Shown: positions 27,728 to 43,318, numbered from the stretch's first letter. The stretch is 64,000 nucleotides of DNA from Bdellovibrionales bacterium (GCA_965204055.1 OZ241967.1:1186126-1250125), one strand, 5' to 3'. Notes: generated by a model from the sequence alone, not told the origin. Numbers and translations are program-made.

Positions 27728-27804
27728 GGGGTGGTGGTCTAGTTGGTTAGGACGCCGGCCTGTCACGCTGGAGATCGCGGGTTCGAGCCCCGTCCACCCC
27801 GCCA
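27728..27804 (+). tRNA. tRNA-Asp (anticodon GTC), CCA encoded
   Basis: Manual cloverleaf: acceptor GGGGTGG/CCACCCC, anticodon stem CCGGC/GCTGG with loop CTGTCAC, T-arm GCGGG-TTCGAGC-CCCGT, discriminator G plus CCA, then a T-run. Confidence 0.9.
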
Positions 27805-27900
27805 GTTTTTTTCTAAATTACTGAAATTACTAATGTTTTTCATATTTTTCATAGTGATTTTTTAAACCCGAAATAACTTTACTTGCCTGTATCAAATAGT

Positions 27901-28115
27901 TGTCCGTAAAAAACCTCTGATTAAACGCGCGGTAAACTGTGGCTTGTCTGCATCAGAACATTGTCTATGAAAAACCTCTGATTAAACGCGCGGTAAACCC
28001 TTTGCATAATCAAAATCAAATAATATATGTCTATGAAAAACCTCTGATTAAACGCGCCACGGTAAACCTGTTGTGTTGCATAAAATATATGTCTGTGAAA
28101 AACCTCTGATTAAAC
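27901..28115. repeat. 4 direct copies of a 37-40-nt unit (TGTCTATGAAAAACCTCTGATTAAACGCGCGGTAAAC) separated by 22-29 nt
   Basis: Units at 27901-27937, 27962-27998, 28028-28067 (3-nt insertion) and 28090-28115 (truncated); the unit starts like the MITE terminus GTCCGTGAAAAACCTC; the interspersed segments resemble each other. Confidence 0.85.
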
Positions 28116-28129
28116 AGGTTATCCTTCTT

Positions 28130-28513
28130 CTACTCCTCATTCACTTTCTCTTGGCTTGGTTTAATACCGCCGTTTGGTTCCGGTTCTTGTTCCTTTGCTT
28201 GTTCCTGGTCTCGTTCCTTTGCTTGTTCCTGGTCTCGTTCCTTTGCTTGTTCCTGGTCTCGTTCCTTTGCTTGTTCCTGGTCTCGTTCCTTTTCCTTTTG
28301 CTTTATACATTGATCTAATTTTTTAGCTTTTTCTTTTTTCCACTCCTTTTCCAGACCCTGCACTAAAGATTGGCATTGATAATAATGCCTATAATGAACA
28401 TCACACCAAGCCACAGAGAAACAGAAAGCAATTATAGCAAGAATACCTATTATGGTCATTATCCAAGGATAATCAAAGATTGTTTTTTTCTCAGAAATAG
28501 TATCTTTACCCAT
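28130..28513 (-). CDS. small membrane protein with 4 x KERDQEQA repeats
   Basis: 127 aa; one TM (WIMTIIGILAIIAFCFSVAW); 24-bp in-frame repeats ~28186-28290; weak SD; strand chosen over the antisense ORF 28073..28318. Confidence 0.45.
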   Translation of the reverse strand: MGKDTISEKKTIFDYPWIMTIIGILAIIAFCFSVAWCDVHYRHYYQCQSLVQGLEKEWKKEKAKKLDQCIKQKEKERDQEQAKERDQEQAKERDQEQAKERDQEQAKEQEPEPNGGIKPSQEKVNEE

Positions 28514-28602
28514 CGTTTTTTCCTTTTTTAGTTTTTTATAATCCGGGACTCATTTTCATCTTTCTTTTATCATAGCAAAAATTCCAACTCTCTTCCTTTT
28601 AA

Positions 28603-28949
28603 TTAGTCCCCCGTGATAAAGTGTTTTTTCCCCGCCAAACTAAAAACCAAATTGCCTTGGCAAACTAAAAACCAAATTGTCTTGGCAAACTAAAAACCAA
28701 ATTGCCTTGGCAAACTAAAAACCAAATTGCCTTGGCAAACTAAAAACCAAATTGCCTTGGCAAACTAAAAACCAAATTGCCTTGGCAAACTAAAAACCAA
28801 ATTGCCTTGGCAAACTAAAAACCAAATTGTTGGCTTTTTAGTCCTTAAAGGTGGGAATCCAGTACCTAAAATGAAAGCCAAAAGGGCTTTCAGCCTTTTT
28901 CAAGAAGGAATCCAGTCAAAATAACAACTTTTTTCACGGGCCACTATTT
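28603..28949. mobile_element. MITE-like element with an internal 25-bp x 8 tandem array
   Basis: Ends TTAGTCCCCCGTGATAAA ... TTTTTTCACGGGCCACTATTT are inverted repeats; the internal array CAAACTAAAAACCAAATTGCCTTGG runs at period 25 from 28636 to 28833. Confidence 0.6.
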
Positions 28950-29096
28950 AGTCCCCCGTGATAAACCTCATTCTCCTTCGCTGTCATACCTGCGAAAGCA
29001 GGTATCCAGAACCTAAAATGAAAGCCCAACGGGCTTTTAGCCTTTTTCAAGGGAGAATCCAGTCAAAATAACATACTTTTTCACGTTCCACTATTT
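28950..29096. mobile_element. MITE-like element (same family)
   Basis: AGTCCCCCGTGATAAACC ... CTTTTTCACGTTCCACTATTT inverted termini; internal hairpin ATACCTGC-GAAA-GCAGGTAT. Confidence 0.6.
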
Positions 29097-29550
29097 ATAA
29101 ATATTTATAAAGTAAACAACATTATCTACAGTTTATAAAGAAATACAATCCTTTGTTCTAAATTCTTTTGGATTTTTGACGCCTTGCGTAATCCTAACCT
29201 TGTAATTTCTTCACCTAAAGCCCTCTTTGTTGAACCCAATCCCAATTTAACTGTAGAAGGAAATCCAATTCATCCTGGTTTTTTAAACCATAAGCAGAAT
29301 AAACAAGAATTAAATCAAAAAAAAACTTATTCACACCCAACTCCTATGGATGACCGGTTTGTCAATAAAAAAAATCCTGCACCATGAAAGGCTTTATCAT
29401 CAACATCAAGCCCAACATACAGTATATTATTTTTCATTGGATGCCCTCCTTTATGTTAAAAGTTATATTTACCCTCCTTATATCTTATAAGAAGGGCAAC
29501 TTCACATATTAGAGTAACCAGCCCCAGAAAAGGTTGGTCATCCATATCTT

Positions 29551-29705
29551 CTATTTAGTCGGTCGTGATAAACCTTGTTCATCTCCAACTGTAAAGCCAA
29601 GTACTTGGCTTTACAGTCCCACCTTGAGCGGGAATCTCGCCTGTTTTAGGACAAAGTAAGCCCTGTTTACTGTGTTGCAATACACTTTTTCACGGACTAC
29701 TAAAT
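29551..29705. mobile_element. MITE-like element (same family)
   Basis: CTATTTAGTCGGTCGTGATAAACC ... CTTTTTCACGGACTACTAAAT inverted termini; internal palindrome TGTAAAGCCAAGTACTTGGCTTTACA. Confidence 0.65.
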
Positions 29706-29740: not shown

Positions 29741-32700
29741 TTACTCAGAGGTAATAGCCAACCAGCAAATGAGCTTAATATCTTCTTCTGAAATAGGAGG
29801 TAAAGGTTCAAGGGAACCGGCAGGTTCGAATCCCGTTTTAATAATCCAATTTATCAGCTTCTTGGCTTTCTCTTTTCCCTTATCACTATCATCATTAAAT
29901 TGTTCTCTTAAAAGCATTTCATCCCTTCTTGGCCAAGGAGATTCTACAATATCAAGAGCAGTATTTATAGCTTGCTCTGTCATATCAGAAGGTTTAAAAG
30001 ATCGAATAAAATCCGCTACCTCTCTATTTATTTTCCGTATTTTTGGCTGTAAATTAGCAGGATCCGCTTCATACATCCAAGAGCTTAAAATATCTTCTTT
30101 AGCCACATTCCAAAAATTATAAACTGACTTTCGAGCCTGCTTTGATAATACAGTTTTAGTATTTTCCTCAGCTTCAATAAGACGAAGGCAAGTTCCCATT
30201 TCCTTAACAATTTTTTTATTTTTTGGTTGCCATTTTTCATTTGAAGGGACAAACCTTAAGTAAGTTCTTTTTTCTCCAACAGTGGCACAAAAGAAAAATC
30301 CCTGCTCTTTTCCTTTGAGCATGCCCGAACCTGATTTCCACGGAAGGTTGACAATCCTATCTCGATTCTCTTTCAAGGCGTTTCTTAAAGTTTGACGATA
30401 TTCTTCCCCTGTTTGAGCAGAGCTAACTGTGCCTCCTCTTTCAAAAAGAGCAGGATTTTCTTTTAGAAGTTGGTTAATCTCTTCTCTTGTCTCAGTAAAA
30501 ACCTGCCTTCCGCTTTGTTCTCCTTCAATAGGAGAAGCAACACCGATACTTCTGGCGGCTAAGGCTAATTTATCTAAAATCCGTTGTTCTAAATCTAATA
30601 AAGCATCTAACCTGTCTGTAGGGAAAATGGTCCTTAAAAAAACCTCTTTATGCTGGCTTCCAATCCTATCAACCCGACCATGACGCTGAACCAAACGCAT
30701 AGGATTCCAAGGAAGGTCATAATTTATAATATGACAGCATTGTTGTAAATTTACCCCTTCTGCTAAAACATCAGTAGTTATTAAAATATCAAAATCATCT
30801 GATGGATTAGTAGATTCCATTGATTGAGGAGCAAAACCATTAACAGCTGATTCTCTGGACATTCCTGGATTAAATCTTTCTCTTTTATGATCAGAGCCTA
30901 TGATAGCCGCTATTCTTCCTTTATACTCTGTAAGCTCTGGATTATTATTTATTTCTTCTTCAAGAAATTTAAAAATCCATTGGACAGTGTCAGCAAAAAA
31001 AGAAAATATCAAAACCTTTCTCTTGTTTCTTCGTTCACTGGCATTCATTCCCTCTTTTTCAGATTGCCTTATTATTTTCTTTAATTCCTTAATAACTTTT
31101 TTCAGTTTTTCATCTTTTGTTTTTGTGATTTTATCTGCTTCTATTTTTAATTTTACAAGAATGTTTAAATCTTGTTTAACATCTCGTTTTAAGTTTTCAG
31201 CATTATAATTGTCTATACTCTCTGTATAAGGACTTTCTTTTAAAGACTCTTCTAAAGCTGTTTCATCATCAGCTGATAACTCCTGTAAAAATTGGGTAGA
31301 TATAACTTTTCCTTTATCAATAGCTTCTAAAAATAGCTTATGTTGTTTTACCATTCTTCCTAAAGTATTAGAAAAAGCAAACAAAGAAGACTCAAATCGT
31401 TTTAGAAGGCCAGAGCGTAAAAGACCAGCAATTCCTTCCGCTCTCCATTGGCTATCTTTATCCGGGTTTTTTAAATAACTATCAGGGATATATCTGGAGA
31501 ATTTAATTTTACAATTACTTTCAGGGTCAAGAGCCTGCTCTATATTTTCAAAAGGAAACATCTCATCCAATGAATAACGAACTGTTTGAGTTCTTGGAAC
31601 AGGAAAAGTGATTTGCAAAAGTGTTCCGTTTGGAGCTTTAATAGTGTCACTTTTATAATGCCTTTGTATAAACTGCCGTGTTCTTTTGACTGTTGTCCCG
31701 TCAATAATAGGAAATAATCTATCAGGGCTGAGGTCAGCTGGATTTTCGAGCATAGCTAAACGAAAAACTTCTTTTATAGATAAAATACCTTTATTAGCTA
31801 AGAAAGCATCCTGTTTTATAAAAAAATGAATAAGATTATAAAGGTCCCAAAGGGAATTATTGACAGGGGTAGCAGTTAACAACAAAACATCCTTCTTTTT
31901 TCCAGAAAGCAGTTGTCTTAAAATGCCTGCCCGCATAGGGGTGTCTGGATTTCTGTAGTTATGAGCTTCATCTATAATAACAAGCTGATATTCATCTACC
32001 TTTCTTTGTAATTTTTCTGAAACCCTTGTGACCTCTTCTTTATTTAATTGTTGATCTCTGGATAACTCTTCGTAAGATACACATTCAATAAAAATTTCAT
32101 ATTCAGATCTAAATTTTTTCCAGGTGCTATCTCTTAAACTGGCTGGACAAATCAACAAAGCTCTTTGTCGCCTGTTTTTATAAATTTCAATAATCTCACC
32201 AGCTATGTAGGTTTTCCCCAGCCCTACTTCGTCTGCTACTATAGCCCCATTGCATTCTTTAATAATTCGCAAAGCTCTAATGACACCATGTTTTTGAAAT
32301 TCAGTTAAATGTAAAAAGCTCTCTCCTAATTTACTGTCAACTTCAATCTCTTTTCCATAAAGTTCCCATAAAACTCTTATAAAAATTTCAAAAGGGGTTC
32401 GAATGGTCAGCAACTCCTCAAACAACCCGGCCAACTCAAAAGGAACAGCCTCCTCCCATAAGCTATCAAACCAGTTTTTTGCTTTCGTAATTGCTTCTTT
32501 ATCAGAACGACTGGTATTTAATTCCAGGTTTGTAGTCATTCCCGATTTTGTCATATTGGAAGAACCAACAATAATTCCTCCGTTTTCTTCTTTAATAAAA
32601 ATATAGGCTTTTGCGTGTAAAAAGTCTTTTTCATATCTCCGAATTTCAATATTTCCCGCTTTAAGGGCTTTAACAAAGTTTCTAATTCTTTGTTCGCTTT

Positions 32701-33067
32701 CAAAGCTAAATGGAAAGTGATTTCTTTCCTCCCATAGCCCTTTCTCAAGTGATTTTAAACTATCTTGTAGTTGCTTCTGTTTAAATTGCTTGTCCGTTTC
32801 TCCAATAGATCTTAAAGCAAAAAGATTTTTTGAAAAGAACTCAGCACCTATCATCAAACGCACACCTGCTGTGTTAATCAACTCATCCGCTATCTGAAAA
32901 AAACCTGCTGAAGTGAAAAAAGCAGTAGCAATACACACTTCATTATATTTAGAAATATCTTCTTGCTTTTTAAGAACAGCTTTTAAGGCTGAAGATAAAG
33001 TATTATCTTCAATATTATCAATCAGAACTGGGAAAAAAGATTTTTTAGAAGGAATACTTTTGCTCAA
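29741..33067 (-). CDS. PLD-like nuclease domain fused to an SNF2-family helicase
   Basis: 1108 aa; N-terminal HKD-like motif FLHAKAYIF...IIVGSSNMT; SNF2 motifs ADEVGLGKT (I), VIIDEAHNYRN (II), LLLTATPVNN (III), TDVLAEGVNLQ (V), QRHGRVDRIG (VI). Confidence 0.85.
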   Translation of the reverse strand: MSKSIPSKKSFFPVLIDNIEDNTLSSALKAVLKKQEDISKYNEVCIATAFFTSAGFFQIADELINTAGVRLMIGAEFFSKNLFALRSIGETDKQFKQKQLQDSLKSLEKGLWEERNHFPFSFESEQRIRNFVKALKAGNIEIRRYEKDFLHAKAYIFIKEENGGIIVGSSNMTKSGMTTNLELNTSRSDKEAITKAKNWFDSLWEEAVPFELAGLFEELLTIRTPFEIFIRVLWELYGKEIEVDSKLGESFLHLTEFQKHGVIRALRIIKECNGAIVADEVGLGKTYIAGEIIEIYKNRRQRALLICPASLRDSTWKKFRSEYEIFIECVSYEELSRDQQLNKEEVTRVSEKLQRKVDEYQLVIIDEAHNYRNPDTPMRAGILRQLLSGKKKDVLLLTATPVNNSLWDLYNLIHFFIKQDAFLANKGILSIKEVFRLAMLENPADLSPDRLFPIIDGTTVKRTRQFIQRHYKSDTIKAPNGTLLQITFPVPRTQTVRYSLDEMFPFENIEQALDPESNCKIKFSRYIPDSYLKNPDKDSQWRAEGIAGLLRSGLLKRFESSLFAFSNTLGRMVKQHKLFLEAIDKGKVISTQFLQELSADDETALEESLKESPYTESIDNYNAENLKRDVKQDLNILVKLKIEADKITKTKDEKLKKVIKELKKIIRQSEKEGMNASERRNKRKVLIFSFFADTVQWIFKFLEEEINNNPELTEYKGRIAAIIGSDHKRERFNPGMSRESAVNGFAPQSMESTNPSDDFDILITTDVLAEGVNLQQCCHIINYDLPWNPMRLVQRHGRVDRIGSQHKEVFLRTIFPTDRLDALLDLEQRILDKLALAARSIGVASPIEGEQSGRQVFTETREEINQLLKENPALFERGGTVSSAQTGEEYRQTLRNALKENRDRIVNLPWKSGSGMLKGKEQGFFFCATVGEKRTYLRFVPSNEKWQPKNKKIVKEMGTCLRLIEAEENTKTVLSKQARKSVYNFWNVAKEDILSSWMYEADPANLQPKIRKINREVADFIRSFKPSDMTEQAINTALDIVESPWPRRDEMLLREQFNDDSDKGKEKAKKLINWIIKTGFEPAGSLEPLPPISEEDIKLICWLAITSE

Positions 33068-33119
33068 TTCATATAACCTTTTGTTTTATTGAAAAATGAC
33101 TCTCTAATAACCTCAGTTA

Positions 33120-34091
33120 TTATGTTGGATTTGGTTTTTGATTTTGTATCTGTTGATTTGCTAAAATGTTGCTATATCGCCCCCAAGATACACCTTTAGT
33201 ATTTTCGTATAATTTTACAAAAGGACCAGGAAGATTAAAAAAACCATTGATTAAAATATGGGCCTCCCACAATAAATCTTGAAGTGTATTATCAGCAAAG
33301 TGAATTTTTAAACCTAACTTAGAAAGTTTTTTTATGGATAAAGGGCGGGTATGCATCAAATGTTCATCATAGTTTGATAAATAAGCAACAGCTTTGTCGA
33401 TTGTTTCGCTGTTGTTCTCACCTTTAAACATATATTCTTTGAGCCAGCTGGATACTAATTGTTTGGATAAACTTTCAGCATCTTCACACAGTTCCAGAAG
33501 ATTCAAAGAGTATTTTTCAATAAGAGGGATATAAGGCAACAGAGCTTCAGGGCCTTCTTTTTCTATTATTTTTCTTATTTTTTCAAAACTATTTTTTATC
33601 ATTCTTGCAGGGATACCATTGATTTGCGGATCAATAGGGCTTAAAATAGCACTGGGGTGTAAAATGATATTGTTTCCTGAAAGAGCTAACATTGTTGCCG
33701 CTGAATAGGCGGAATGAGGAATTAGAAAATCAACTTCTTTAAAATGACTGCGCAACAATTTCACAAGACGCTCTGTAGCATCTGGGCTACCTCCGGGACT
33801 ATGTAAAAGCACATCAACGGCAGAACTTCCTTTTACGGAGTTTATTAAATCAGTAACACCGTCTACATCAGATATATCAATGGAAATTAGAGCATCCGGT
33901 GGTAGAAGTTGTTGGTCTAAAAATTTTGTTACATATACCAGCAACGGTCGTTTGCGATATTTCTCAATGTCCTTATAACAATTTCTGCGAAGTTCCAGAA
34001 GGTTTACCTTTCCACCGGAAGTACACATAAAATTAAACCAATCTTGAGTCGTTTTAAACTTTATACGATTGGATTGAGGGTGGGAGTGCAT
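33120..34091 (-). CDS. Clp-fold serine protease of the SDH (serine dehydrogenase proteinase)/SppA-like type
   Basis: 323 aa; LLHSPGGSPDA, HSAYSAATMLALSG and SPIDPQ motifs as in ClpP/SppA-fold SDH proteases; 52 bp upstream of the helicase; start uncertain (alternative ATG at 34028). Confidence 0.6.
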   Translation of the reverse strand: MHSHPQSNRIKFKTTQDWFNFMCTSGGKVNLLELRRNCYKDIEKYRKRPLLVYVTKFLDQQLLPPDALISIDISDVDGVTDLINSVKGSSAVDVLLHSPGGSPDATERLVKLLRSHFKEVDFLIPHSAYSAATMLALSGNNIILHPSAILSPIDPQINGIPARMIKNSFEKIRKIIEKEGPEALLPYIPLIEKYSLNLLELCEDAESLSKQLVSSWLKEYMFKGENNSETIDKAVAYLSNYDEHLMHTRPLSIKKLSKLGLKIHFADNTLQDLLWEAHILINGFFNLPGPFVKLYENTKGVSWGRYSNILANQQIQNQKPNPT

Positions 34092-34293
34092 CAGTATCTA
34101 TCTCAAAATTTTTTGTTGAACCAGAACTATATTTATATATTTTTTTTCGACCCATAGCAATATCTATTTTTTCTGCAATATCGGAAATTTCCTTATATGT
34201 TTTATAAAACTCCAATGCTTTGGCATTTTCGTTTAAAACAGATTCAGGCAGGATTTCTTCAGTCGTAAGTTTTGATTTTTTTTGAGTAGTCAT
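34054..34293 (-). CDS. small hypothetical protein, first gene of the protease-helicase operon
   Basis: 79-aa ORF, same strand, overlaps the annotated protease start by 38 nt; no recognisable motif. Confidence 0.4.
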   Translation of the reverse strand: MTTQKKSKLTTEEILPESVLNENAKALEFYKTYKEISDIAEKIDIAMGRKKIYKYSSGSTKNFEIDTDALPPSIQSYKV

Positions 34294-34362
34294 ATTTTAT
34301 ATTATCGTTAATTTGGATTATGAAGTCAACAAAATTATAGCTGAAAAATCAAGCAAAAAACA

Positions 34363-35490
34363 CCTTAAAATGCCATTTTCACCCTATTTTACTTGTCATT
34401 GTTCCCTTTTGGAATATATTATCATCCTTTAAATTGTCCTTGCCCCTCGTTTTTTAGCTACCTTATTTCAATGGCACTTTAAAGAGGTAATAAATTTATA
34501 AGAGATTGACAAAAAGTTTTTTGTGCATCACTTTTGAACACCATGAAAAAAAGCAAAAAGTTTCTACACGATCATTTATTTAAAGAAGTTTACTCTCAAC
34601 CCAAATACTGCGTAGACATCTTAAGCCTTGTTTTCTCAACAGAGGAAATGAGCCTGTTTGATTGGACTACCCTTAAAACCGAAGCCACCACTTTTGTTGA
34701 CAAGCAATTTAGAGAAAAACGAATGGACCTTCTGGTCTCAGCCCTTTTTAAAGGCTCCCGGAAGCCTGCCAGAGTGTTGTTCTTAATGGAGCACAAGAGT
34801 CAAGAAGACCCGGAGCTATTACGGCAATTTTTAATGTATCAGGCAGGTATTTATCAAAGTACCCGTGATCCAGTGCTCCCTATATTTATCAACCAAAGTC
34901 CAAACAAAACTTGGAAAGGGTCTTTAGATTTTCATGGTTTTTTAGATAATTTTGAAGGAGAGTTAAAAAAGAGGTTTAAAGAGAATGTGTTAAATTTTCG
35001 CCCCAGAGTATTGAATATTCAGGCTTTAGATATAGATAAGGCCAAGGGCTTGACAACGTGTCCTATTTTGTATATTTTAAAGCATATATGGAACTTAAAC
35101 GCGAAAAAGATAAAGGGGTTATTTACAATAGGCCGTGGTTTGAGTCAAAATGAGCGAGAAGCTTTGATCGTGCGAGCGGTGGATTATGTTCGTCAATATG
35201 ATCCTAATTTTAATTGGAAGATAGTAAGAGAGATTGAACAAACCACAGTCAAAAAGGAGGAAAGAGTTATGGCACCGTTACTTCAGTATTCATTGGATGA
35301 AGCCAGAGAAGAAGGCTTAAAAAAAGGCCGACTGGAAGGTATAGAAAAAGGCATGGAAAAAGGCATGCAGGCGGTAGCCTTAAACATGTTGAAAGCAAAA
35401 GCGGATCTATCTTTTATCTCCAAAATGACAGGTCTTTCTGAGGCAGAAATCGAAAAACTTAAAAACAACTCTTAAAAAGAGTTTTTCATT
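34363..35490. repeat. ~1.1 kb direct repeat, copy 1 (Rpn gene plus its upstream region)
   Basis: Aligns by eye with 42190-43318 at high identity, with a ~35-bp indel upstream and a 36-bp indel in the (GGCATGGAAAAA)n tract. Confidence 0.85.
34534..35475 (+). CDS. Rpn (YhgA-like) recombination-promoting nuclease / putative transposase family, copy 1
   Basis: 313 aa; HDHLFKEVYSQP N-terminus, RMDLLV...VLFLMEHKSQ (PD-(D/E)xK-type D...E-x-K), C-terminal EEGLKKGRLEGIEKG and TGLSEAEIEKL; likely start ATG at 34543. Confidence 0.8.
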   Translation: MNTMKKSKKFLHDHLFKEVYSQPKYCVDILSLVFSTEEMSLFDWTTLKTEATTFVDKQFREKRMDLLVSALFKGSRKPARVLFLMEHKSQEDPELLRQFLMYQAGIYQSTRDPVLPIFINQSPNKTWKGSLDFHGFLDNFEGELKKRFKENVLNFRPRVLNIQALDIDKAKGLTTCPILYILKHIWNLNAKKIKGLFTIGRGLSQNEREALIVRAVDYVRQYDPNFNWKIVREIEQTTVKKEERVMAPLLQYSLDEAREEGLKKGRLEGIEKGMEKGMQAVALNMLKAKADLSFISKMTGLSEAEIEKLKNNS

Positions 35491-35707: not shown

Positions 35708-38700
35708 TTAAAGTTTCTTTTTCCAAAGATTGTAATACTTTAAAACGGCGGTTAAGCGGGACTGGTAGTCCCCAGTTCTGTGAAAGGTCTCAAAGATATG
35801 AATAAGTTGTTTTTGAGACAAGCCGTAAAGGTGAGCCACTACAGCGTCTAATTCATAAATCATATTGTTCTTTTTTTCTTCATCCAGCGGACCATATTCT
35901 ACACCTACAGCTTCAGCCCATTTAGAAAATCGTTTATCTGGGGAAGCTAACCGACCAGAGAGAGCTACAACTTTTTTCCAAAGAGGGTTTTCTCTGGAAG
36001 GTCTGGGAATAGGAAAAGTATTAAGAAGAAAAAAACTAAGACTATTTGTAGAAATAAATAAACGAGCATACCAATCTAAAGGAATAGAGCTTAAAACTCC
36101 AAGTAAAAAGGCTTCATCTTTTTCATCTCCTCTTGGAAGTAGAAAATAAGGTGCTTTATGAACTAAAAACACTTTAGGGGGCAAAAGGCTGGTTTTAACC
36201 GTTCTGTAATCAATGCTGTTTGTTACATCGTGAAATGCAATTCTTGGTTTAAAGCAAGATAAAGTATTTTTATTTTGTATATAATCAATGGAAAACTCTG
36301 AATGAACGCTTTTTTGATTTTTATGACTATTAAGTCTTTTGTTATAAAGCCAAGAGAGTGCTGTTTCAGGATTGGCATAAGCATAATACTTCCTTGTATC
36401 AGTTTTCCAGATATTAAAAGACCTACCTGTCCAAACTGGCCAAAACCCTTTTGGACATTTTTTTGATTTTAAATCCATTAAAGGTTTTGATCCTGTAGTA
36501 TGTAATTCTGTATCAGGTCGAACTCTCCAACTATTTTTATCATTCAAACCTAACCGGGGGCTTTTCCTTAATTGAAGAAAAACATCCATAGAATCTTCTC
36601 TTGGTAAAGAGGGTAAGGAAGCAGAATCTGTCCATGAAAATACTTGCTTTTCTGTAAAAGACAAAGACAGTTTGTTTTCTTTAGCTTGCAACTCCTCATG
36701 GGAATAAAAAGGGCCTTGAATATGGATTGTTTTACCAGTGGGGCGGAAATCTCTTGTTCGGCTTAATTTTTTTTCAAATTGTTGGACAAAGGGTTTAAAA
36801 GTGAGATTGTGTTTTTCAGATGTTTTTTTTAAGGAAATCAAAGCAATATTATATTGAGCATGAACTTCCGAAAAAATCCACTTCTTGTTATTGATTAGCA
36901 TTGTTATATTAGAAGAAGCATTATTAAAAATGTCTTTTCTAAATAACTCCGATCCCTTTGCGGAAAAAACATTCCCTGGAAGAACGACCCCCAAAAATCC
37001 ACAATCTTTACAAATAAGATGCCAAAATCTCCATGAGAAAAATTTATACAAGTCAGAATCTCCTGAACCGGATTGAACATAAGATGATTGTTTCAATACA
37101 TTTTTAAGCCTTTTAACATTTGATAGCTCTTTCTCATACTCTTTGACAAGGTGAGGGTATTGTCTTTTTACTTTTTGATATTCTGCCTCTCTCTCCCTTT
37201 GAGAAAGTCCTCTTAATCCGGGAAAATGCCTGGCCCAAAAAGCATGTTCTTCCAGCTTGATTTTTTCCCAAGGAGGGTTGCCAATAATTACATCAAAGCC
37301 AGGCCTCTTTCTTAAAAAAACTTCAGGAAAAGCTATGGGAAAATGAAGGGTTTTTAAATTTTTAAGCTCTAAACGAGCTGATTTTAGTTCTTTGGAATTA
37401 TGAATGCTTTTTATGTTTTTTACCCATTCTACCAGTTTAAAACCACTTACTTGGTTAGTTATGCGATTAAAAATTATTACATCAAACAAGGCTTTAGTAT
37501 CCTTTAAAGAAGATTCAATCTCTTTTTTAAAGAGTCTGCTTGCTTTTATTTCCTCAACACTTAAATCAGCAAGTTTTCTCATATCTTGAAGAGACTTTTT
37601 TGCCTGACCAATTAGTTTTTCTCTATCAATCAGATCAAAAGACAAGTTTTCTGATTCTTGTTTGCTTTTAAGCTCTGATTGAAATTCCTTAATGGTCCCT
37701 ATACCCACAAGGGAGTTTCCACAAATTAGATTGTGATTAAAATAGGAAAGAGGAAGCCCTGGAACAAATGTATGTGTCCAAAGTGATAACTTGGCCAATT
37801 GCACCGCCAAGTCATTATTGTCCACCCCGTAAATGCAGTGCTTTGCAATATGTCGGGCTAAATATTTTCTGTCTTCAACTGGAAAATAATCGTCAGATAT
37901 ACCTATATCTTTGAGATTTTTTTCCGCTGTCTTTTTTGTTTTATCTAAAATATTTTGAACACCCTTTAAAGGTCTGTTATTCAAATAGTCTGCCATTTTG
38001 TTTTCAATCCTATCAACCGCTGCCACTAAAAAATGCCCGGACCCCATCGCAATGTCCGCCGTAAAAAAGTTAAAAAATTCTTTTTCTGCGTCTTCGTCAT
38101 GCAATTTATTTAAGCGGTTAAAATGCTCTTTTAAAGCGGGTTCAAGAGATTTGTCTAAAATATAATCAACAATAAAACTTTTGGTGTAATAACTACCTGT
38201 TGCTTTTCTTGCTCCAGATTGATTGTGCAAATAAACCTCTCCCTTTTTAACAATAATTTCTTCTGTTTTTTTAGATTTCTTGTTTTTACTGACTTTTAAC
38301 TTCCTTAAAGGGACATAAATATTGTTTGTATCCAATGTTAAATCCGTATCAGCTATTGATAAATTAGACTCTAAAAGTCCCTCATAAATAGTCCCAAATT
38401 CACGAGGACCCAGAAAACGAAAATCCACTGGGCCAAGAGGAGTTTCCTCATTTTCCATAAGAAGCAAGCTTTTTAAAGCAGGCACAAAAAATTTATTGGA
38501 AACAGAAACCTTTGCAATTTCATGCCCTGTTGTTGAAACCTCTTTTTCACTACTAAACAAGCCTCCGTTATAAGCCATAATTCCCCACTCAATATTTCCT
38601 TTATCAATAGCCTCCCAAAGCCTAACTGTTTCTTTCCAGTGATTATCTCCTTCTTCAGGTTCTTTCCCGTTTGAAAAAAGTTTTGATAATTCTAAAGCTT

Positions 38701-39859
38701 TTTGTTTTAAAGATCGGTTATGATAAGCTGAATTTGTATTATAAGGTAACAAATCTTTATCTTCTGCATAAGCTATAAATAAAAGGCGAAACAAAACAAT
38801 CAATGTCATTTGATAAGTTTCATTTAACTCTTCAGGAGAAGGTTTTTTTAAGCTTCTTGCATGAACAATCCCTTTAGCTATTTGAGGAATAATCTCATCA
38901 TAAATTCGTGGTTTTAAGTTTTTTGCTACACCTTCTGAAAAACGTTTTGAGTTTTCTAAAATTTCAGTTAAAGAACCTTGTTCACTTAATGCCTCTGCGG
39001 AAAAAATAAGCCATAGATAACCCAGATTTTCTTCCTGCAAGAGAGAAGGCTGGCATTCCACATAAGTTTCTGTTCGGGAATTATGGCTTAATCCTGTTTC
39101 TTTTTTTGTGCTGTAAAGCCGAATATGATTATCTTGAATCATTAAAACCCAAGGCATGTGCTCCTGGTCCGCTTTATTCATAGCATAACTAACAGGGGAT
39201 AGTTGATTAAAACGTTGTTCTTTAGATTCGTGTGTTTCTGAAGGTTCCAGTAAAACAGCTAAAGCTCTTTTTTTATCATGGCTTTTTAAAATATATGTCC
39301 GGTCGTCAAGCTGGCTAATTTGAAAGCCAAGCCCTTTTAAAAGCTCTTTTTTTCCAAAAACAGATATGGCTTTAGATTTTTCTTTGGCTTTCTCCCAATC
39401 AGGACGATTTTTTACTCCATAAGTAAGATGATGAGAAGACAACATGCCTTTATTGTTGATTCCAAATAATCCTTCTTCTATAGAAGAAAGAAAACGAGAA
39501 CAAAATTTTAAGGCTCTGTGCCGGTTGGGTTGTTTTAAAGCTACCTGACAAAATTTTTCAACTAGTTCAAGTTGAATGTTTTTATAAACAGGAGGGTTTT
39601 CTCCAGAAGCACCACAAAGAGAAGCTTGATTATCACCATGAATAACAGTTAATAAAACCGGTGATGCTCTATGGTTTTTCCTTTTCTTTTGAGCCTTTTT
39701 TACAGTTTCAGTGTTGGGGGTGTTATTGCCTGTTAACACTGCTATTTCTAAGGCATCCCTTCCTTTTCCTAAAATTAATTTCTCCGACTTAAGCCCTGAT
39801 ATTAAATTGGAAAGGGGCCTTGATTGAAAATCATCGAGAAATTTCTTTACAGCACTCAT
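35708..39859 (-). CDS. giant N6-adenine DNA methyltransferase of the PglX / type IIG-IIL restriction-modification type
   Basis: 1383 aa; LIVLFRLLFIAYAEDKDLLP helix, SAM motif DIAMGSGHFLVAAV, catalytic motif IV VIIGNPPWEKIK, ~400-aa C-terminal region in the usual target-recognition position; no nuclease motif could be confirmed in the N-terminal ~280 aa. Confidence 0.8.
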   Translation of the reverse strand: MSAVKKFLDDFQSRPLSNLISGLKSEKLILGKGRDALEIAVLTGNNTPNTETVKKAQKKRKNHRASPVLLTVIHGDNQASLCGASGENPPVYKNIQLELVEKFCQVALKQPNRHRALKFCSRFLSSIEEGLFGINNKGMLSSHHLTYGVKNRPDWEKAKEKSKAISVFGKKELLKGLGFQISQLDDRTYILKSHDKKRALAVLLEPSETHESKEQRFNQLSPVSYAMNKADQEHMPWVLMIQDNHIRLYSTKKETGLSHNSRTETYVECQPSLLQEENLGYLWLIFSAEALSEQGSLTEILENSKRFSEGVAKNLKPRIYDEIIPQIAKGIVHARSLKKPSPEELNETYQMTLIVLFRLLFIAYAEDKDLLPYNTNSAYHNRSLKQKALELSKLFSNGKEPEEGDNHWKETVRLWEAIDKGNIEWGIMAYNGGLFSSEKEVSTTGHEIAKVSVSNKFFVPALKSLLLMENEETPLGPVDFRFLGPREFGTIYEGLLESNLSIADTDLTLDTNNIYVPLRKLKVSKNKKSKKTEEIIVKKGEVYLHNQSGARKATGSYYTKSFIVDYILDKSLEPALKEHFNRLNKLHDEDAEKEFFNFFTADIAMGSGHFLVAAVDRIENKMADYLNNRPLKGVQNILDKTKKTAEKNLKDIGISDDYFPVEDRKYLARHIAKHCIYGVDNNDLAVQLAKLSLWTHTFVPGLPLSYFNHNLICGNSLVGIGTIKEFQSELKSKQESENLSFDLIDREKLIGQAKKSLQDMRKLADLSVEEIKASRLFKKEIESSLKDTKALFDVIIFNRITNQVSGFKLVEWVKNIKSIHNSKELKSARLELKNLKTLHFPIAFPEVFLRKRPGFDVIIGNPPWEKIKLEEHAFWARHFPGLRGLSQREREAEYQKVKRQYPHLVKEYEKELSNVKRLKNVLKQSSYVQSGSGDSDLYKFFSWRFWHLICKDCGFLGVVLPGNVFSAKGSELFRKDIFNNASSNITMLINNKKWIFSEVHAQYNIALISLKKTSEKHNLTFKPFVQQFEKKLSRTRDFRPTGKTIHIQGPFYSHEELQAKENKLSLSFTEKQVFSWTDSASLPSLPREDSMDVFLQLRKSPRLGLNDKNSWRVRPDTELHTTGSKPLMDLKSKKCPKGFWPVWTGRSFNIWKTDTRKYYAYANPETALSWLYNKRLNSHKNQKSVHSEFSIDYIQNKNTLSCFKPRIAFHDVTNSIDYRTVKTSLLPPKVFLVHKAPYFLLPRGDEKDEAFLLGVLSSIPLDWYARLFISTNSLSFFLLNTFPIPRPSRENPLWKKVVALSGRLASPDKRFSKWAEAVGVEYGPLDEEKKNNMIYELDAVVAHLYGLSQKQLIHIFETFHRTGDYQSRLTAVLKYYNLWKKKL

Positions 39860-42006: not shown

Positions 42007-42189
42007 GTCCTAAACCTTCTATGTGGTTCTTATCTCTTGTATACTTTAGAAGGCATGCATGCCGTACAATAAAGATTTTTGTTTGCAGATTCTATAAAGC
42101 TATATATTAGCTCCTAAGAAATGCTTAGCCTGTTATTTTGCTTATTTTTTATCATTTTTACAGGGATACCATTGATTTGCGGGTCAATA

Positions 42190-43318
42190 GGCCTTAAAAT
42201 GCCATTTTCACCCTATTTTACCTGTGATTTGTCTTTACTATTTTTTAGCTACCTTATTTCAATGGCACTTTAAAGAGGTAATAAATTTGTAAGAGATTGA
42301 CAAAAAGTTTTTTGTGCGTCACTTTTGAACACCATGAAAAAAAGTAAAAAGTTTCTACACGATCATTTATTTAAAGAAGTTTACTCTCAACCCAAATACT
42401 GCGTAGACATCTTAAGCCTTGTTTTCTCAAAAAAAGAAATGAGCCTGTTTGATTGGACTACCCTTAAAACCGAAGCCACCTCTTTTATTGACGAGTCATC
42501 AAGAGAAAAACGAATGGACCTTCTGGTCTCAGCCCTTTTTAAAGATTCCAGGAAGCCTGCCAGAGTGTTGTTCTTAATGGAGCACAAGAGTCAAGAAGAC
42601 CCGGAGCTATTACGGCAATTTTTAATGTATCAGGCAGGTATTTATCAAAGTACCCGTGATCCAGTGCTTCCAGTATTCATCAATCAAAGTCCAAACAAGA
42701 AATGGAAAGGGTCTTTAGATTTTCACGATTTTTTGAATAATTTTGAAGGAGAGTTAAAAAAGAGGTTTAAAGAGAATGTGTTAAATTTTCGCCCCAGAGT
42801 ATTGAATATTCAGGCTTTAGATATAGATAAGGCCAAGGGCTTGACAACGCGTCCTATTTTGTATATTTTAAAGCATATATGGAACTTAAACGCGAAAAAG
42901 ATAAAGGGGTTATTTACAATAGGCCGTGGTTTGAGTCAAAATGAGCGAGAAGCTTTGATCGTGCGAGCGGTGGATTATGTTCGTCAATATGATCCTAATT
43001 TTAATTGGAAGATAGTAAGAGAGATTGAACAAACCACAGTCAAAAAGGAGGAAAGAGTTATGGCACCGTTACTTCAGTATTCATTGGATGAAGCCAGAGA
43101 AGAAGGCTTAAAAAAAGGCCGACTGGAAGGTATAGAAAAAGGCATGGAAAAAGGCATGGAAAAAGGCATGGAAAAAGGCATGGAAAAAGGCATGCAGGCG
43201 GTAGCCTTAAACATGTTGAAAGCAAAAGCGGATCTATCTTTTATCTCCAAAATGACAGGTCTTTCTGAGGCAGAAATCGAAAAACTTAAAAATAACTCTT
43301 AAAAAAGTTTTCATCAAA
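42190..43318. repeat. ~1.1 kb direct repeat, copy 2
   Basis: See 34363-35490. Confidence 0.85.
42325..43302 (+). CDS. Rpn (YhgA-like) recombination-promoting nuclease family, copy 2
   Basis: 325 aa, near-identical to copy 1 except for scattered substitutions and 4 instead of 1 GMEK units (12-bp repeat at 43141-43188). Confidence 0.8.
   Translation: MNTMKKSKKFLHDHLFKEVYSQPKYCVDILSLVFSKKEMSLFDWTTLKTEATSFIDESSREKRMDLLVSALFKDSRKPARVLFLMEHKSQEDPELLRQFLMYQAGIYQSTRDPVLPVFINQSPNKKWKGSLDFHDFLNNFEGELKKRFKENVLNFRPRVLNIQALDIDKAKGLTTRPILYILKHIWNLNAKKIKGLFTIGRGLSQNEREALIVRAVDYVRQYDPNFNWKIVREIEQTTVKKEERVMAPLLQYSLDEAREEGLKKGRLEGIEKGMEKGMEKGMEKGMEKGMQAVALNMLKAKADLSFISKMTGLSEAEIEKLKNNS

What the first reader, a model, noticed from the sequence alone, without database searches (positions are those of the whole stretch)
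29741..34293. Candidate three-gene defence operon: small protein, SDH-type Clp-fold serine protease and PLD-nuclease/SNF2-helicase fusion
Three co-oriented, tightly spaced genes lie inside a tRNA-linked accessory island (a 38-nt overlap, then a 52-nt gap). The 1108-aa protein joins an HKD/PLD-type nuclease motif (HAKAYIF...GSSN) to a complete SNF2 motor. Those two activities are separate proteins in DISARM (DrmC and DrmD). The partner is a ClpP/SppA-fold SDH protease (GGS, SAATM and DPQ motifs), preceded by a 79-aa ORF with no recognisable motif. I do not recognise protease plus PLD-SNF2 as a named defence system, so it may be an undescribed combination. Function is inferred only from domain logic and island context.
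Basis: inference. Interest (0 to 1): 0.75.

Follow-up and report, generated by a model that had tools for sequence, protein, structure and literature searches.

The report
Two separate modules, not one trio
The three genes are real, but they are two independent units placed side by side: a nuclease-helicase that works with a large DNA methyltransferase just outside the flagged region, and a mobile, uncharacterised pair of a small protein and a Clp-like protease sitting between them.

Summary
All three ORFs, their spacing and their domains are confirmed. The "three-gene system" does not hold up. Across 80 species-level genomes from many phyla, the 79-aa protein and the SDH protease always occur together, with overlapping genes. 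The PLD-SNF2 gene lies within 10 kb in only 2 of those 80 loci. It is adjacent in all 11 contexts examined, including a haloarchaeal and a mycobacterial plasmid, usually with nothing in between. That pair reads as a two-gene, ATP-dependent restriction-modification-like system. It resembles MANTIS/BR type 2 and class 1 DISARM but lacks their defining ATPase and helicase partners. In one Bdellovibrionales lineage the small+protease cassette sits between the two genes, and relatives show each module surviving without the other. The cassette has no hit among PADLOC's defence-system models and no informative annotation. It is highly conserved (50-87% identity across phyla) and often lies next to restriction genes. 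Its most likely role is a toxin-antitoxin or abortive-infection-like protease module, but this is inference. Interest is moderate: the trio is not a system, but the cassette is worth testing.

The parts
29741..33067 (-). PLD(HKD) nuclease fused to an SNF2-type SF2 ATPase, 1108 aa. Predicted restriction (motor plus nuclease) subunit of module A.
   Evidence: Pfam PLDc_2, SNF2-rel_dom and Helicase_C. Best PADLOC model is PDLC01075 'HKD+Snf2', 1.1e-70. Motifs are intact. There are 6759 homologues, and the top 120 are near full length (937-1141 aa, 85-100% of the query covered) at 52% identity or more.
32555..32617 (-). Single HKD motif (H151-A-K153 ... G168-S-S-N171). One motif per chain implies that an active site forms only in a dimer.
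   Evidence: Sequence. The dimeric single PLD site is shown for MtsD, with BfiI cited as the comparison, in bioRxiv 10.64898/2026.09.23.753747.
35708..39859 (-). Eco57I / type IIG-like N6-adenine methyltransferase with specificity region, 1383 aa.
   Evidence: Pfam Eco57I 2.8e-19. PADLOC REase_MTase_IIG PDLC03620 9.5e-269, end to end. MGSGHF 605-610 and NPPW 861-864. Adjacent to PLD-SNF2 in L001, L004, L081-L084, L086, L087, L107 and L108.
33120..34091 (-). SDH-family Clp-fold serine protease, 323 aa. Effector of module B, the mobile cassette.
   Evidence: PF01972 9.6e-21. The AF2 model has pLDDT 77 and Foldseek matches ClpP and the NfeD 1510-N protease. S130, D154, H244 and H247 are invariant. 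There are 178 relatives among 185,579 species genomes, and the 80 fetched are 51-71% identical across many phyla.
34054..34293 (-). 79-aa partner protein of the protease. It has one long helix and a conserved, unstructured C-terminal tail, and overlaps the protease start by 38 nt.
   Evidence: A homologue is upstream of the protease in 80 of 81 loci by jackhmmer, and in the 81st by tblastn. The overlap is 23-50 nt in all 58 loci where the protease start could be assigned. The family has 96 clusters at 50% identity, all stand-alone proteins of 50-130 aa. AF2 gives a helix at 17-46 and a low-confidence tail.
34301..34329 (-). Promoter-like site (TTGACT-17-GATAAT) just upstream of the small ORF.
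   Evidence: This is a consensus match only, and such sites are not enriched over shuffles. No terminator-like site lies between the protease and PLD-SNF2, so the three genes are probably co-transcribed here.
34534..35475 (+). Rpn/YhgA-type recombination-promoting nuclease gene, inserted on the opposite strand between the methyltransferase and the cassette.
   Evidence: Pfam Transposase_31 5.3e-19 and TIGR01784. It is absent from this position in L081, where the four genes are contiguous.
42143..42206 (-). Remnant of a second SDH protease gene (aa 147-167), joined to a copy of the spacer upstream of the small gene and to a second Rpn gene.
   Evidence: the repeat finder D9 and D10. blastn gives 93% over 58 nt, and tblastn 76% over 21 aa.
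42325..43302 (+). Second Rpn/YhgA gene, 92% identical to the first. With it, it forms a direct repeat of about 1.07 kb flanking the methyltransferase and DUF4209 genes.
27728..27804 (+). tRNA-Asp at the left edge of the accessory stretch.
   Evidence: ARAGORN.

Best explanation
The flagged interval is a composite of two modules.

**Module A** is a two-gene, ATP-dependent restriction-modification-like system.
- The 1383-aa Eco57I/type IIG-like adenine methyltransferase (35708-39859) recognises a DNA motif and methylates host DNA.
- The PLD-SNF2 protein (29741-33067) is its restriction subunit. A dimer forms one HKD active site, and the SNF2 motor uses ATP to engage or translocate on unmethylated DNA before cleavage.

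**Module B** is an autonomous, horizontally mobile two-gene cassette: the 79-aa protein followed by an overlapping SDH Clp-fold serine protease.
- The protease is catalytically intact and is never found without the small protein.
- The most likely role is a toxin-antitoxin or abortive-infection-type module. The small protein, through its conserved flexible C-terminal tail, would hold the protease in check or serve as its dedicated substrate, and release of the protease would harm the cell or an invader.

In one Bdellovibrionales lineage Module B lodged in the spacer between the two Module A genes, as small toxin-antitoxin or abortive-infection genes are known to do within restriction loci (from my own knowledge, for example prrC in EcoprrI; not checked here). 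In this window it is probably co-transcribed with PLD-SNF2.

**Shown:** gene content, domains, intact motifs, the two conserved pairings and their independence.
**Inferred:** restriction activity, the roles of the subunits, and any toxicity or regulation of the protease.
For: **The small protein and the protease are an obligate pair.**
- The pair is present in 81 of 81 loci.
- The genes overlap by 23-50 nt in all 58 loci where this could be scored.
- Every other neighbour is variable; no family occurs in more than 6 of 80 loci.
- The 80 loci fetched from the genome scan are 51-71% identical across Patescibacteria, Bacteroidota, Bdellovibrionota, Gammaproteobacteria, Chloroflexota, Omnitrophota and Gemmatimonadota. 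Closer relatives in the protein search reach 87%.

**The methyltransferase and PLD-SNF2 are a pair.**
- They are adjacent in L081, L082, L083, L084, L086, L087, L001 and L004 and L107 and L108.
- The gap is -4 to 128 nt in L086, L087, L107 and L108.
- The two proteins diverge in parallel: 40% and 41% identity in Halorubrum, 37% and 39% in Mycobacterium.

**The two modules are independent.**
- L082 has Module A without the cassette.
- L083 keeps the small gene, but the protease is replaced by a SocA_Panacea gene plus a 141-aa gene.
- L090 has an intact cassette flanked only by remnants of the methyltransferase and PLD-SNF2.
- In L104 and L105 the protease has an internal deletion; in L106 an IS element splits it. 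The small gene is intact in all three.
- The closest cassette relatives (83-87% identity) lie next to type I hsdM/hsdS (L088) or transposases (L089), with no intact PLD-SNF2. L090 retains only remnants.

**Conflict context of the cassette.**
- Among 140 immediate neighbours, the most frequent Pfam families are GmrSD_N (5), HNH (5), Eco57I (4), N6_Mtase (3), MmeI_Mtase (3) and Methylase_S (2) (PADLOC).
- Among 140 ORFs at least 6.5 kb away in the same loci, no family has more than 2 members and most are housekeeping.

**Protease competence.** The Ser, Asp and His residues are invariant and the fold is ClpP-like.

**Precedent for a PLD plus SF2 restriction effector.** SauUSI (7CLG) matches across the junction of the PLD and helicase domains. 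MtsD of MANTIS is required for restriction and its solved structure is a dimer with a single PLD site.
Against: - No experiment exists for either module.
- The N-terminal ~530 aa of the methyltransferase has no assigned fold. I cannot say whether it carries its own nuclease, as the PADLOC 'type IIG' label would imply.
- The four-gene block (methyltransferase, small, protease, PLD-SNF2) persisted while the proteins diverged to about 70-75% identity, and it sits at different chromosomal sites (window compared with L081). L004 shows a second, independent juxtaposition of the cassette with a distant PLD-SNF2/Eco57I pair. Some functional cooperation is therefore not excluded.
- Finding the small gene without the protease (4-5 events) but never the reverse is not statistically significant, because the protease gene is four times longer. 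The pattern also fits a model where the small protein is a substrate.
- The cassette has no hit to any PADLOC model. Most of its neighbours are not defence genes, so a defence or toxin-antitoxin role is only a likelihood.
- The neighbour enrichment was read from top-25 family lists, not from per-protein counts.
Confidence: 0.65

Rival explanations
1. The genes form one integrated system in this lineage, either the trio or the quartet with the methyltransferase. The protease and its small partner would regulate the PLD-SNF2 restriction subunit. For example, they could degrade it when it engages unmodified host DNA (a self-encoded 'restriction alleviation', analogous to ClpXP acting on HsdR of EcoKI). 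Alternatively, they could act as a second-line effector when restriction is blocked.
For: - The gene order small, protease, PLD-SNF2 with a 50-53 nt spacer is kept in the window, L001 and L081, at 70-83% protein identity and at different chromosomal sites.
- No terminator-like site lies between the protease and PLD-SNF2.
- L004 joins the cassette to a distant (27% identity) PLD-SNF2/Eco57I pair.
- The cassette is repeatedly found next to other restriction systems: type I in L088, M.EcoRI-like plus DUF262-HNH in 5 loci, and GmrSD in L001.
- ClpXP-dependent restriction alleviation is from my own knowledge (Makovets et al. 1999) and was not checked here.
Against: - In 78 of 80 cassette loci there is no PLD-SNF2 within 10 kb.
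- Module A works as a bare two-gene unit in distant taxa (L086, L087, L107, L108).
- Each module survives the loss of the other (L082, L090).
- The majority of cassette neighbours are unrelated to restriction.
Confidence: 0.15
2. The small+protease cassette is not a conflict module. It would be a self-contained protease and substrate (or pro-peptide) pair with a physiological or regulatory role, like the NfeD protease and stomatin. Its position in this island would be incidental hitch-hiking.
For: - The closest solved relatives by sequence are the NfeD 1510-N stomatin-specific proteases, which cleave an operon-encoded partner. That they cleave an operon partner is from my own knowledge.
- The small protein's conserved C-terminal tail looks like a peptide ligand or substrate.
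- There is no PADLOC hit.
- Most neighbours are housekeeping or unknown.
Against: - The distribution is patchy: 178 relatives among 185,579 species genomes, at 50-70% identity across phyla. That indicates frequent horizontal transfer, not a housekeeping role.
- Copies are flanked by transposases (L089), duplicated (L090) or interrupted by an IS element (L106).
- Restriction genes are enriched among immediate neighbours compared with distal genes.
Confidence: 0.15
3. The locus is a reduced member of a named system: class 1 DISARM (with a DrmC-DrmD fusion plus DrmMI) or MANTIS/BR type 2.
For: - PADLOC gives DrmD hits (9.6e-46) and DrmMI hits (1.7e-66).
- NCBIfam DISARM_DrmD scores 183 bits.
- The HKD-N-terminal SNF2 architecture equals that of the BR type 2 helicase MtsD.
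Against: - The scores are far below the equivalog cutoffs: 183 against 610 for DrmD, and 153 against 1100 for the PLD anti-phage helicase NF042964.
- No DrmA, DrmB, DUF499 or DUF3780 was found. Of the window's ORFs, 35 were scanned: 15 against Pfam and 14, including the largest, against PADLOC. None was found in eight other Module A loci either (precomputed Pfam labels; annotated product names only).
Confidence: 0.04

Closest known systems
MANTIS (Gao_RL) / DUF499-centred BREX-related type 2 system (MtsA-D)
   Same: - The effector has an N-terminal HKD/PLD nuclease fused to a Swi2/Snf2-type SF2 ATPase.
- It is paired with an N6-adenine methyltransferase that marks self DNA.
- The logic is restriction-modification-like (PMC12839542; bioRxiv 10.64898/2026.09.23.753747).
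   Different: - There is no DUF499 AAA+ ATPase (MtsA) and no DUF3780 protein (MtsB), both of which MANTIS needs for methylation and restriction.
- The methyltransferase here is a much larger Eco57I/type IIG-like protein (1383 aa).
- The NCBIfam model for a PLD anti-phage helicase (NF042964, which I did not link to MtsD) scores 153 bits against a cutoff of 1100.
Class 1 DISARM (DrmD SNF2 helicase, DrmMI adenine methyltransferase, DrmC PLD nuclease, DrmA, DrmB)
   Same: The locus combines an SNF2 helicase, a PLD nuclease and a large adenine methyltransferase. There are partial HMM matches to DrmD and DrmMI.
   Different: - PLD and SNF2 are one polypeptide.
- The core markers DrmA and DrmB (DUF1998) are absent.
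- The DrmD equivalog score is 183 against a cutoff of 610.
SauUSI (PDB 7CLG), an ATP-dependent type IV restriction enzyme
   Same: It has an N-terminal PLD nuclease followed by an SF2 motor. The sequence match spans the junction of the two domains (query 130-299). It is a characterised, dimeric, ATP-driven nuclease (as described).
   Different: SauUSI is a stand-alone enzyme that targets modified DNA through its own recognition domain. Here a cognate methyltransferase is always adjacent, which implies that unmodified DNA is the target.
Type III (Mod/Res) and type ISP restriction-modification enzymes
   Same: A methyltransferase-specificity component works together with an SF2 motor-nuclease component in ATP-dependent restriction. 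This comparison is from my own knowledge.
   Different: The nuclease is HKD/PLD at the N-terminus rather than PD-(D/E)xK. The motor is of SNF2 type. The methyltransferase is of Eco57I/gamma class with a long N-terminal domain of unknown function.
Type II toxin-antitoxin modules, and toxin-antitoxin or abortive-infection genes embedded in restriction loci (for example prrC in EcoprrI)
   Same: - A small upstream gene overlaps a larger downstream gene.
- The module moves horizontally on its own.
- It is found inside or beside restriction loci.
- A SocA_Panacea antitoxin-domain gene lies in the same slot in L083, immediately after the retained small gene where the protease would be.
   Different: - No known toxin or antitoxin family matches.
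- A 323-aa Clp-fold protease would be an unusual toxin.
- Toxicity and neutralisation are untested.
NfeD (1510-N) protease and stomatin operons
   Same: This is the nearest solved relative by sequence (E about 0.007-0.02), and it shares the ClpP-like fold. The protease acts on a partner encoded in the same operon (from my own knowledge).
   Different: - There is no membrane or OB domain and no stomatin/PHB partner.
- The catalytic residues follow the Ser-Asp-His order of the SDH family rather than a Ser-Lys dyad.
- The partner is a 79-aa soluble protein.

Membership tests
SDH-family Clp-fold serine protease (Pfam PF01972 / NCBIfam NF047768) | Significant match to the family model above the curated cutoff | tested here: met
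   The Pfam score is 74.5 bits against a cutoff of 31.3. The stricter NCBIfam equivalog cutoff is not reached (82.8 against 250), so this is a family member but not the named equivalog.
SDH-family Clp-fold serine protease (Pfam PF01972 / NCBIfam NF047768) | Ser, Asp and His catalytic residues in that order, on a ClpP-like fold | tested here: met
   S130 (also S127), D154 and H244/H247 are invariant in 20 homologues. Foldseek matches the AF2 model to ClpP and NfeD with probability 1.00. Which Ser and which His are catalytic was not resolved.
Class 1 DISARM | DrmA helicase and DrmB (DUF1998) core genes in the locus | tested here: not met
   No such hits were found among the window ORFs scanned, or in the called genes or annotated products of L081-L087, L107 and L108.
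Class 1 DISARM | DrmD equivalog (NF038317) | tested here: not met
   183.2 bits against a cutoff of 610.
MANTIS / BREX-related type 2 | DUF499 AAA+ ATPase (MtsA) and DUF3780 protein (MtsB) encoded with the methyltransferase and helicase | tested here: not met
   Neither is present in the window island or in eight other loci of this PLD-SNF2 clade.
MANTIS / BREX-related type 2 | HKD nuclease N-terminal to a Swi2/Snf2 helicase, acting as effector alongside an N6-methyltransferase | tested here: met
   The domain order is PLDc_2 127-204 followed by SNF2 258-416 and Helicase_C 674-803. An adjacent methyltransferase carries NPPW.
Type IIG restriction-modification enzyme (fused nuclease and methyltransferase) | Gamma-class N6-adenine methyltransferase motifs and a full-length family match | tested here: met
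   PADLOC REase_MTase_IIG PDLC03620 9.5e-269 over residues 35-1382. Motif I is MGSGHF and motif IV is NPPW.
Type IIG restriction-modification enzyme (fused nuclease and methyltransferase) | Its own N-terminal endonuclease domain | tested here: inconclusive
   The N-terminal ~530 aa is conserved but matches no Pfam or PDB entry. No invariant D...(D/E)xK pattern stands out among the invariant columns across 8 homologues.
Type II toxin-antitoxin module | Two tightly coupled genes that move as an autonomous unit | tested here: met
   The pair is present in 81 of 81 loci, with overlaps of 23-50 nt and variable flanks.
Type II toxin-antitoxin module | One product is toxic and is neutralised by the other | not testable with these tools
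   Only indirect evidence is available. The protease is never found without the small gene, and there are several cases of a disrupted protease with an intact small gene. This is not statistically decisive.
   Trio adjacency is found only in the Bdellovibrionales relatives L001 and L081. In 78 of 80 cassette loci there is no PLD-SNF2 within 10 kb, and 7 of the 8 PLD-SNF2 context look-ups outside the cassette scan (L081-L084, L086, L087, L107, L108) lack an intact cassette.

The most novel reading that the evidence does not exclude
The small-protein plus SDH-protease cassette may be a previously unrecognised, widely transferred conflict module. It could be a new protease-based toxin-antitoxin or abortive-infection family. 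More interestingly, it could be a portable protease that travels with restriction systems, either to police their motor-nuclease subunits (a self-encoded restriction alleviation) or to fire when restriction is inhibited. Separately, the methyltransferase plus PLD-SNF2 pair would be a minimal two-gene relative of MANTIS/DISARM that achieves methylation and restriction without the DUF499 ATPase.
Probability: 0.3. Interest if true: 0.7.

Novelty: new variant of a known kind. Interest (0 to 1): 0.42.

Why it matters
Three points matter.

1. **A mis-drawn system boundary is corrected.** Anyone cloning "the trio" would leave out the methyltransferase that PLD-SNF2 needs. Such a construct might be toxic or inert.

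2. **Module A is a minimal relative of MANTIS and DISARM.** The methyltransferase plus PLD-SNF2 pair is very widespread in Bacteria and Archaea, and the public records I inspected annotate it only as "hypothetical protein" plus "helicase-related protein". MANTIS needs an extra AAA+ loader to methylate. A two-gene version would be a simple comparison for asking how a PLD-SNF2 effector is coupled to a methyltransferase.

3. **Module B is an unstudied, highly conserved pair.** It has 50-87% identity across phyla, no PADLOC or literature match, and local enrichment next to restriction genes. If the protease turns out to be a toxin or an abortive-infection effector, it would add a Clp-fold protease class to the known protease-based defence effectors.

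Tried and rejected
- **Named systems.** PADLOC, NCBIfam, Pfam and PHROGs scans did not place the trio in any named system. The protease and the small protein have no PADLOC hit.
- **DISARM and MANTIS membership.** Rejected because the core genes are missing and the scores are below cutoff.
- **Phage origin of the cassette.** Rejected as a general explanation. There are only 12 relatives in 2.9 million viral contigs, and only one is closer than 45% identity. There is a PHROG of unknown function, and one distant lambdoid example exists (L109).
- **Literature.** Searches for SDH/DUF114/PF01972 or ClpP-like proteases in a defence context found nothing relevant. The 'DUF114' hits were mostly word-start artefacts such as DUF1145 and DUF1149.
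- **PDB sequence searches.** A single-sequence search with the methyltransferase found nothing. A profile search found only weak matches of about 50 residues to CamA and BsaXI.
- **Small protein.** The AF2 model is only moderately confident (pLDDT 68), so I did not run a fold search on it.
- **L083.** I considered that the small protein could be the toxin neutralised by PanA. I could not distinguish this from PanA pairing with the downstream 141-aa gene, which has no Pfam hit.
- **Decay asymmetry.** I considered using the pattern of disrupted proteases with intact small genes as proof of protease toxicity. I rejected it as not significant, given the 4:1 ratio of gene lengths.
- **Exhausted tools.** The caps on the search for homologous proteins, the look-up of encoding contigs and the genome-contig scan were all reached, so I could not run a larger neighbourhood census of the PLD-SNF2 clade.

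Full report
**1. The observation**

They are 29741-33067 (1108 aa, TTG start), 33120-34091 (323 aa) and 34054-34293 (79 aa). They are separated by a 52-nt gap and a 38-nt overlap.

Pfam confirms the domains. The large protein has PLDc_2 (127-204), SNF2-rel_dom (258-416) and Helicase_C (674-803). The 323-aa protein matches SDH_protease (PF01972, 74.5 bits against a cutoff of 31.3). The 79-aa ORF has no hit in Pfam, PADLOC, NCBIfam or PHROGs.

The catalytic and ATPase motifs are intact:
- One HKD motif: H151-x-K153...G168-S-S-N171.
- Helicase motifs: GLGKT, DEAH, TATP and QRHGRVDRIG.
- Protease motifs: HSAYSAATM (126-134), IDPQ (153-156) and HLMH (244-247).

tRNA-Asp lies at 27728-27804. An accessory stretch of about 15.5 kb follows it, up to a truncated gmk and yicC.

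**2.

Upstream on the same strand lies a 1383-aa protein (35708-39859). It has an Eco57I methylase domain, an end-to-end match to PADLOC's REase_MTase_IIG model (9.5e-269), and the motifs MGSGHF and NPPW.

Between this gene and the small ORF, on the opposite strand, is an Rpn/YhgA-type nuclease gene (34534-35475). Further on are a DUF4209 protein that matches the PADLOC candidate PDC-S39 and a second Rpn copy, 92% identical to the first.

**3. Does the trio travel together?**

The protease is remarkably conserved. The best 120 of 948 database hits are 62-100% identical and come from Bdellovibrionales, Patescibacteria, Peribacteria and others.

A scan of one genome per species found 178 relatives, and I fetched 80 loci with 10-kb flanks. 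The results were:
- tblastn with the window's proteins found a homologue of the small protein directly upstream of the protease in most loci. PLD-SNF2 appeared in only two: L001 (83% identity, same gene order) and L004 (27% identity, different order).
- A jackhmmer search of the upstream ORFs raised the small-protein count to 80 of 81. The remaining locus, L055, is positive by tblastn.
- All-against-all clustering of about 1,200 flanking ORFs showed that only the protease and the small protein are shared. No other family occurs in more than 6 of the 80 loci.
- In all 58 loci where the protease start could be assigned by a simple rule, the small ORF overlaps it by 23-50 nt.

The conserved unit is therefore the pair, not the trio.

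**4. What PLD-SNF2 travels with**

PLD-SNF2 belongs to a very large family. There are 6759 hits, and the top 120 are near full length (937-1141 aa, 85-100% of the query covered) at 52% identity or more. Every context I could examine has an Eco57I-type methyltransferase next to it, of about 1070-1450 aa except in L084 (893 aa):

| Locus | PLD-SNF2 identity | Arrangement |
|---|---|---|
| L081 | 75% | methyltransferase, small, protease, PLD-SNF2, contiguous |
| L082 | 70% | divergent methyltransferase, no cassette |
| L083 | 73% | other genes between the two |
| L084 | 54% | adjacent 893-aa methyltransferase |
| L086 | 52% | 128-nt gap |
| L087 | 55% | 1-nt gap |
| L107 (Halorubrum plasmid) | 41% | methyltransferase 40% identical over its full length |
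| L108 (Mycobacterium plasmid) | 39% | methyltransferase 37% identical over residues 1-1023, 4-nt overlap |
| L004 | 27% | Eco57I plus TaqI_C methyltransferase adjacent |

The two proteins diverge in parallel across domains of life. This is good evidence for a functional pair. In the two annotated records I inspected (L107, L108) they are labelled only "hypothetical protein" and "helicase-related protein".

**5. A series of relatives shows the modules are independent**

Within the Bdellovibrionales clade I found each of these states:
- All four genes intact: the window, L001 and L081.
- Methyltransferase and PLD-SNF2 without the cassette: L082, whose genome carries a cassette elsewhere (inferred from shared contig lengths).
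- The small gene retained but the protease replaced by a SocA_Panacea gene and a 141-aa gene: L083.
- An intact cassette flanked only by short remnants of the methyltransferase and PLD-SNF2: L090.
- The small gene intact while the protease has an internal deletion (L104, L105) or is split by an IS element (L106), and an orphan small gene in a defence island (L103).

The closest relatives of the window's cassette (83-87% identity) lie next to type I hsdM/hsdS (L088), between transposases (L089), or duplicated (L090), with no intact PLD-SNF2. L090 retains only remnants.

The window itself holds a 58-nt remnant of a second protease gene, joined to the second Rpn copy.

**6. What the cassette is**

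*Protease.* The AF2 model (pLDDT 77) matches ClpP and the NfeD 1510-N protease. By sequence, NfeD is the only solved relative. Ser, Asp and His candidates are invariant, so the enzyme is probably active.

*Small protein.* The family has 96 clusters at 50% identity, all stand-alone proteins of 50-130 aa. AF2 predicts one long helix (17-46) followed by a conserved tail of low confidence (G48, R49, Y53, S59, T60, I65, S76, Y77). A conserved tail of this kind typically folds only when bound to a partner.

*Context.* The cassette is rare in viral contigs (12 hits in 2.9 million).
- Among 140 flanking ORFs, the families with three or more members are all restriction or defence families: GmrSD_N 5, HNH 5, Eco57I 4, N6_Mtase 3 and MmeI_Mtase 3. 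Methylase_S, AAA_15 and AAA_21 follow with 2 each (PADLOC).
- Among 140 ORFs at least 6.5 kb away in the same loci, no family has more than two members and most are housekeeping.
- Five loci carry the same M.EcoRI-like methyltransferase plus DUF262-HNH nuclease pair beside the cassette.

*Reading.* The cassette looks like an autonomous, mobile, conflict-associated two-gene module. The small-gene-first, overlapping layout and the Panacea substitution in L083 suggest toxin-antitoxin or abortive-infection logic, with the protease as effector.

This is inference, for three reasons. The decay asymmetry is not statistically significant. A protease-substrate model fits the data equally well. I found nothing in the literature.

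**7. What the methyltransferase plus PLD-SNF2 pair is**

The architecture has experimentally studied precedents. SauUSI (7CLG) aligns across the junction of the PLD and helicase domains. MtsD of MANTIS/BR type 2 is a dimeric PLD-SF2 effector that restricts unmethylated DNA marked by an N6-adenine methyltransferase.

Membership in a named system fails:
- MANTIS and BR systems are defined by a DUF499 ATPase, and type 2 also by DUF3780. Neither is present here or in eight other loci.
- DISARM requires DrmA and DrmB. Neither was found among the window ORFs scanned, and the DrmD equivalog score is 183 against a cutoff of 610.

The most likely mechanism is a minimal, two-gene, ATP-dependent restriction-modification-like system. 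The methyltransferase would supply recognition and self-marking. A PLD-SNF2 dimer would supply the motor and a single HKD site.

Whether the methyltransferase's conserved N-terminal ~530 aa is a nuclease could not be decided.

**8. Verdict**

The PLD-SNF2 fusion is common and of a known kind.

In this window the trio is probably co-transcribed. A promoter-like site precedes the small ORF, and no terminator-like site lies before PLD-SNF2. Lineage-specific cooperation, such as the protease policing or backing up the restriction subunit, remains possible and I put it at about 15%.

The part of real interest is the small+protease cassette, which is widespread, highly conserved and unstudied. The second point of interest is that Module A may be a natural minimal counterpart of MANTIS and DISARM. 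Overall interest is moderate.

Noticed in passing
window 40201-42006 (+): A 601-aa DUF4209 protein matches the PADLOC candidate single-gene defence system PDC-S39 nearly end to end (1.7e-28). It is transcribed divergently from the methyltransferase and is not conserved next to Module A elsewhere.
   Followed up: partly
window 34450-35485 and 42241-43311; 42143-42229: Two Rpn/YhgA recombination-promoting nuclease genes (92% protein identity, 94% DNA identity) form a direct repeat of about 1.07 kb around the methyltransferase and DUF4209 genes. Just upstream of the second copy is a 58-nt remnant of an SDH protease gene, fused to a copy of the spacer upstream of the small gene. This points to a past duplication and deletion of the junction between the cassette and Rpn.
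   Followed up: partly
window 27850-29700: The non-coding stretch between tRNA-Asp and PLD-SNF2 is rich in repeats. It has a 25-nt tandem array of about 10 copies (28602-28876), 61-66 nt repeats in 4 copies (27882-28126), a 97-nt pair (28854 and 29001), and a short motif TTTAGTCCCCCGTGATAAA in 3 copies. The 127-aa ORF at 28130-28513 contains a 12/24-nt coding repeat (KERDQEQA units).
   Followed up: no
L083 8272-9879: In a relative, the slot between the methyltransferase and PLD-SNF2 holds an intact small-protein gene, then a SocA_Panacea antitoxin-domain gene and a 141-aa gene with no Pfam hit, in place of the protease. This may be a PanA-type toxin-antitoxin pair that displaced the protease, or a hint that the small protein can pair with another partner.
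   Followed up: partly
L107 (Halorubrum lacusprofundi pHLAC01) and L108 (Mycobacterium gallinarum plasmid): The methyltransferase plus PLD-SNF2 pair is conserved on an archaeal and an actinobacterial plasmid at about 37-41% identity for both proteins. It is annotated only as 'hypothetical protein' and 'helicase-related protein'.
   Followed up: yes
L109 3712-4921 (K. pneumoniae 727-kb plasmid, lambdoid nin-like region): A distant SDH protease (about 30-33% identity) sits between replication genes and RusA/antiterminator genes. It is also preceded, 14 nt upstream, by a 67-aa ORF with no detectable similarity to the small-protein family. The 'small ORF plus SDH protease' layout may therefore extend to remote branches.
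   Followed up: partly
L019, L027, L040, L042, L062 (next to the cassette): Five loci from different candidate phyla share the same M.EcoRI-like methyltransferase plus DUF262(GmrSD_N)-HNH nuclease pair directly beside the small+protease cassette. This suggests that a four-gene islet is co-transferred.
   Followed up: partly
L001 1240-2100 and 6368-8467: The closest species-level relative carries an ArdC-like anti-restriction/zincin gene 8.7 kb upstream. It also has a full GmrSD type IV restriction gene inserted between the methyltransferase and the cassette. This indicates a context of a conjugative element or defence island.
   Followed up: no
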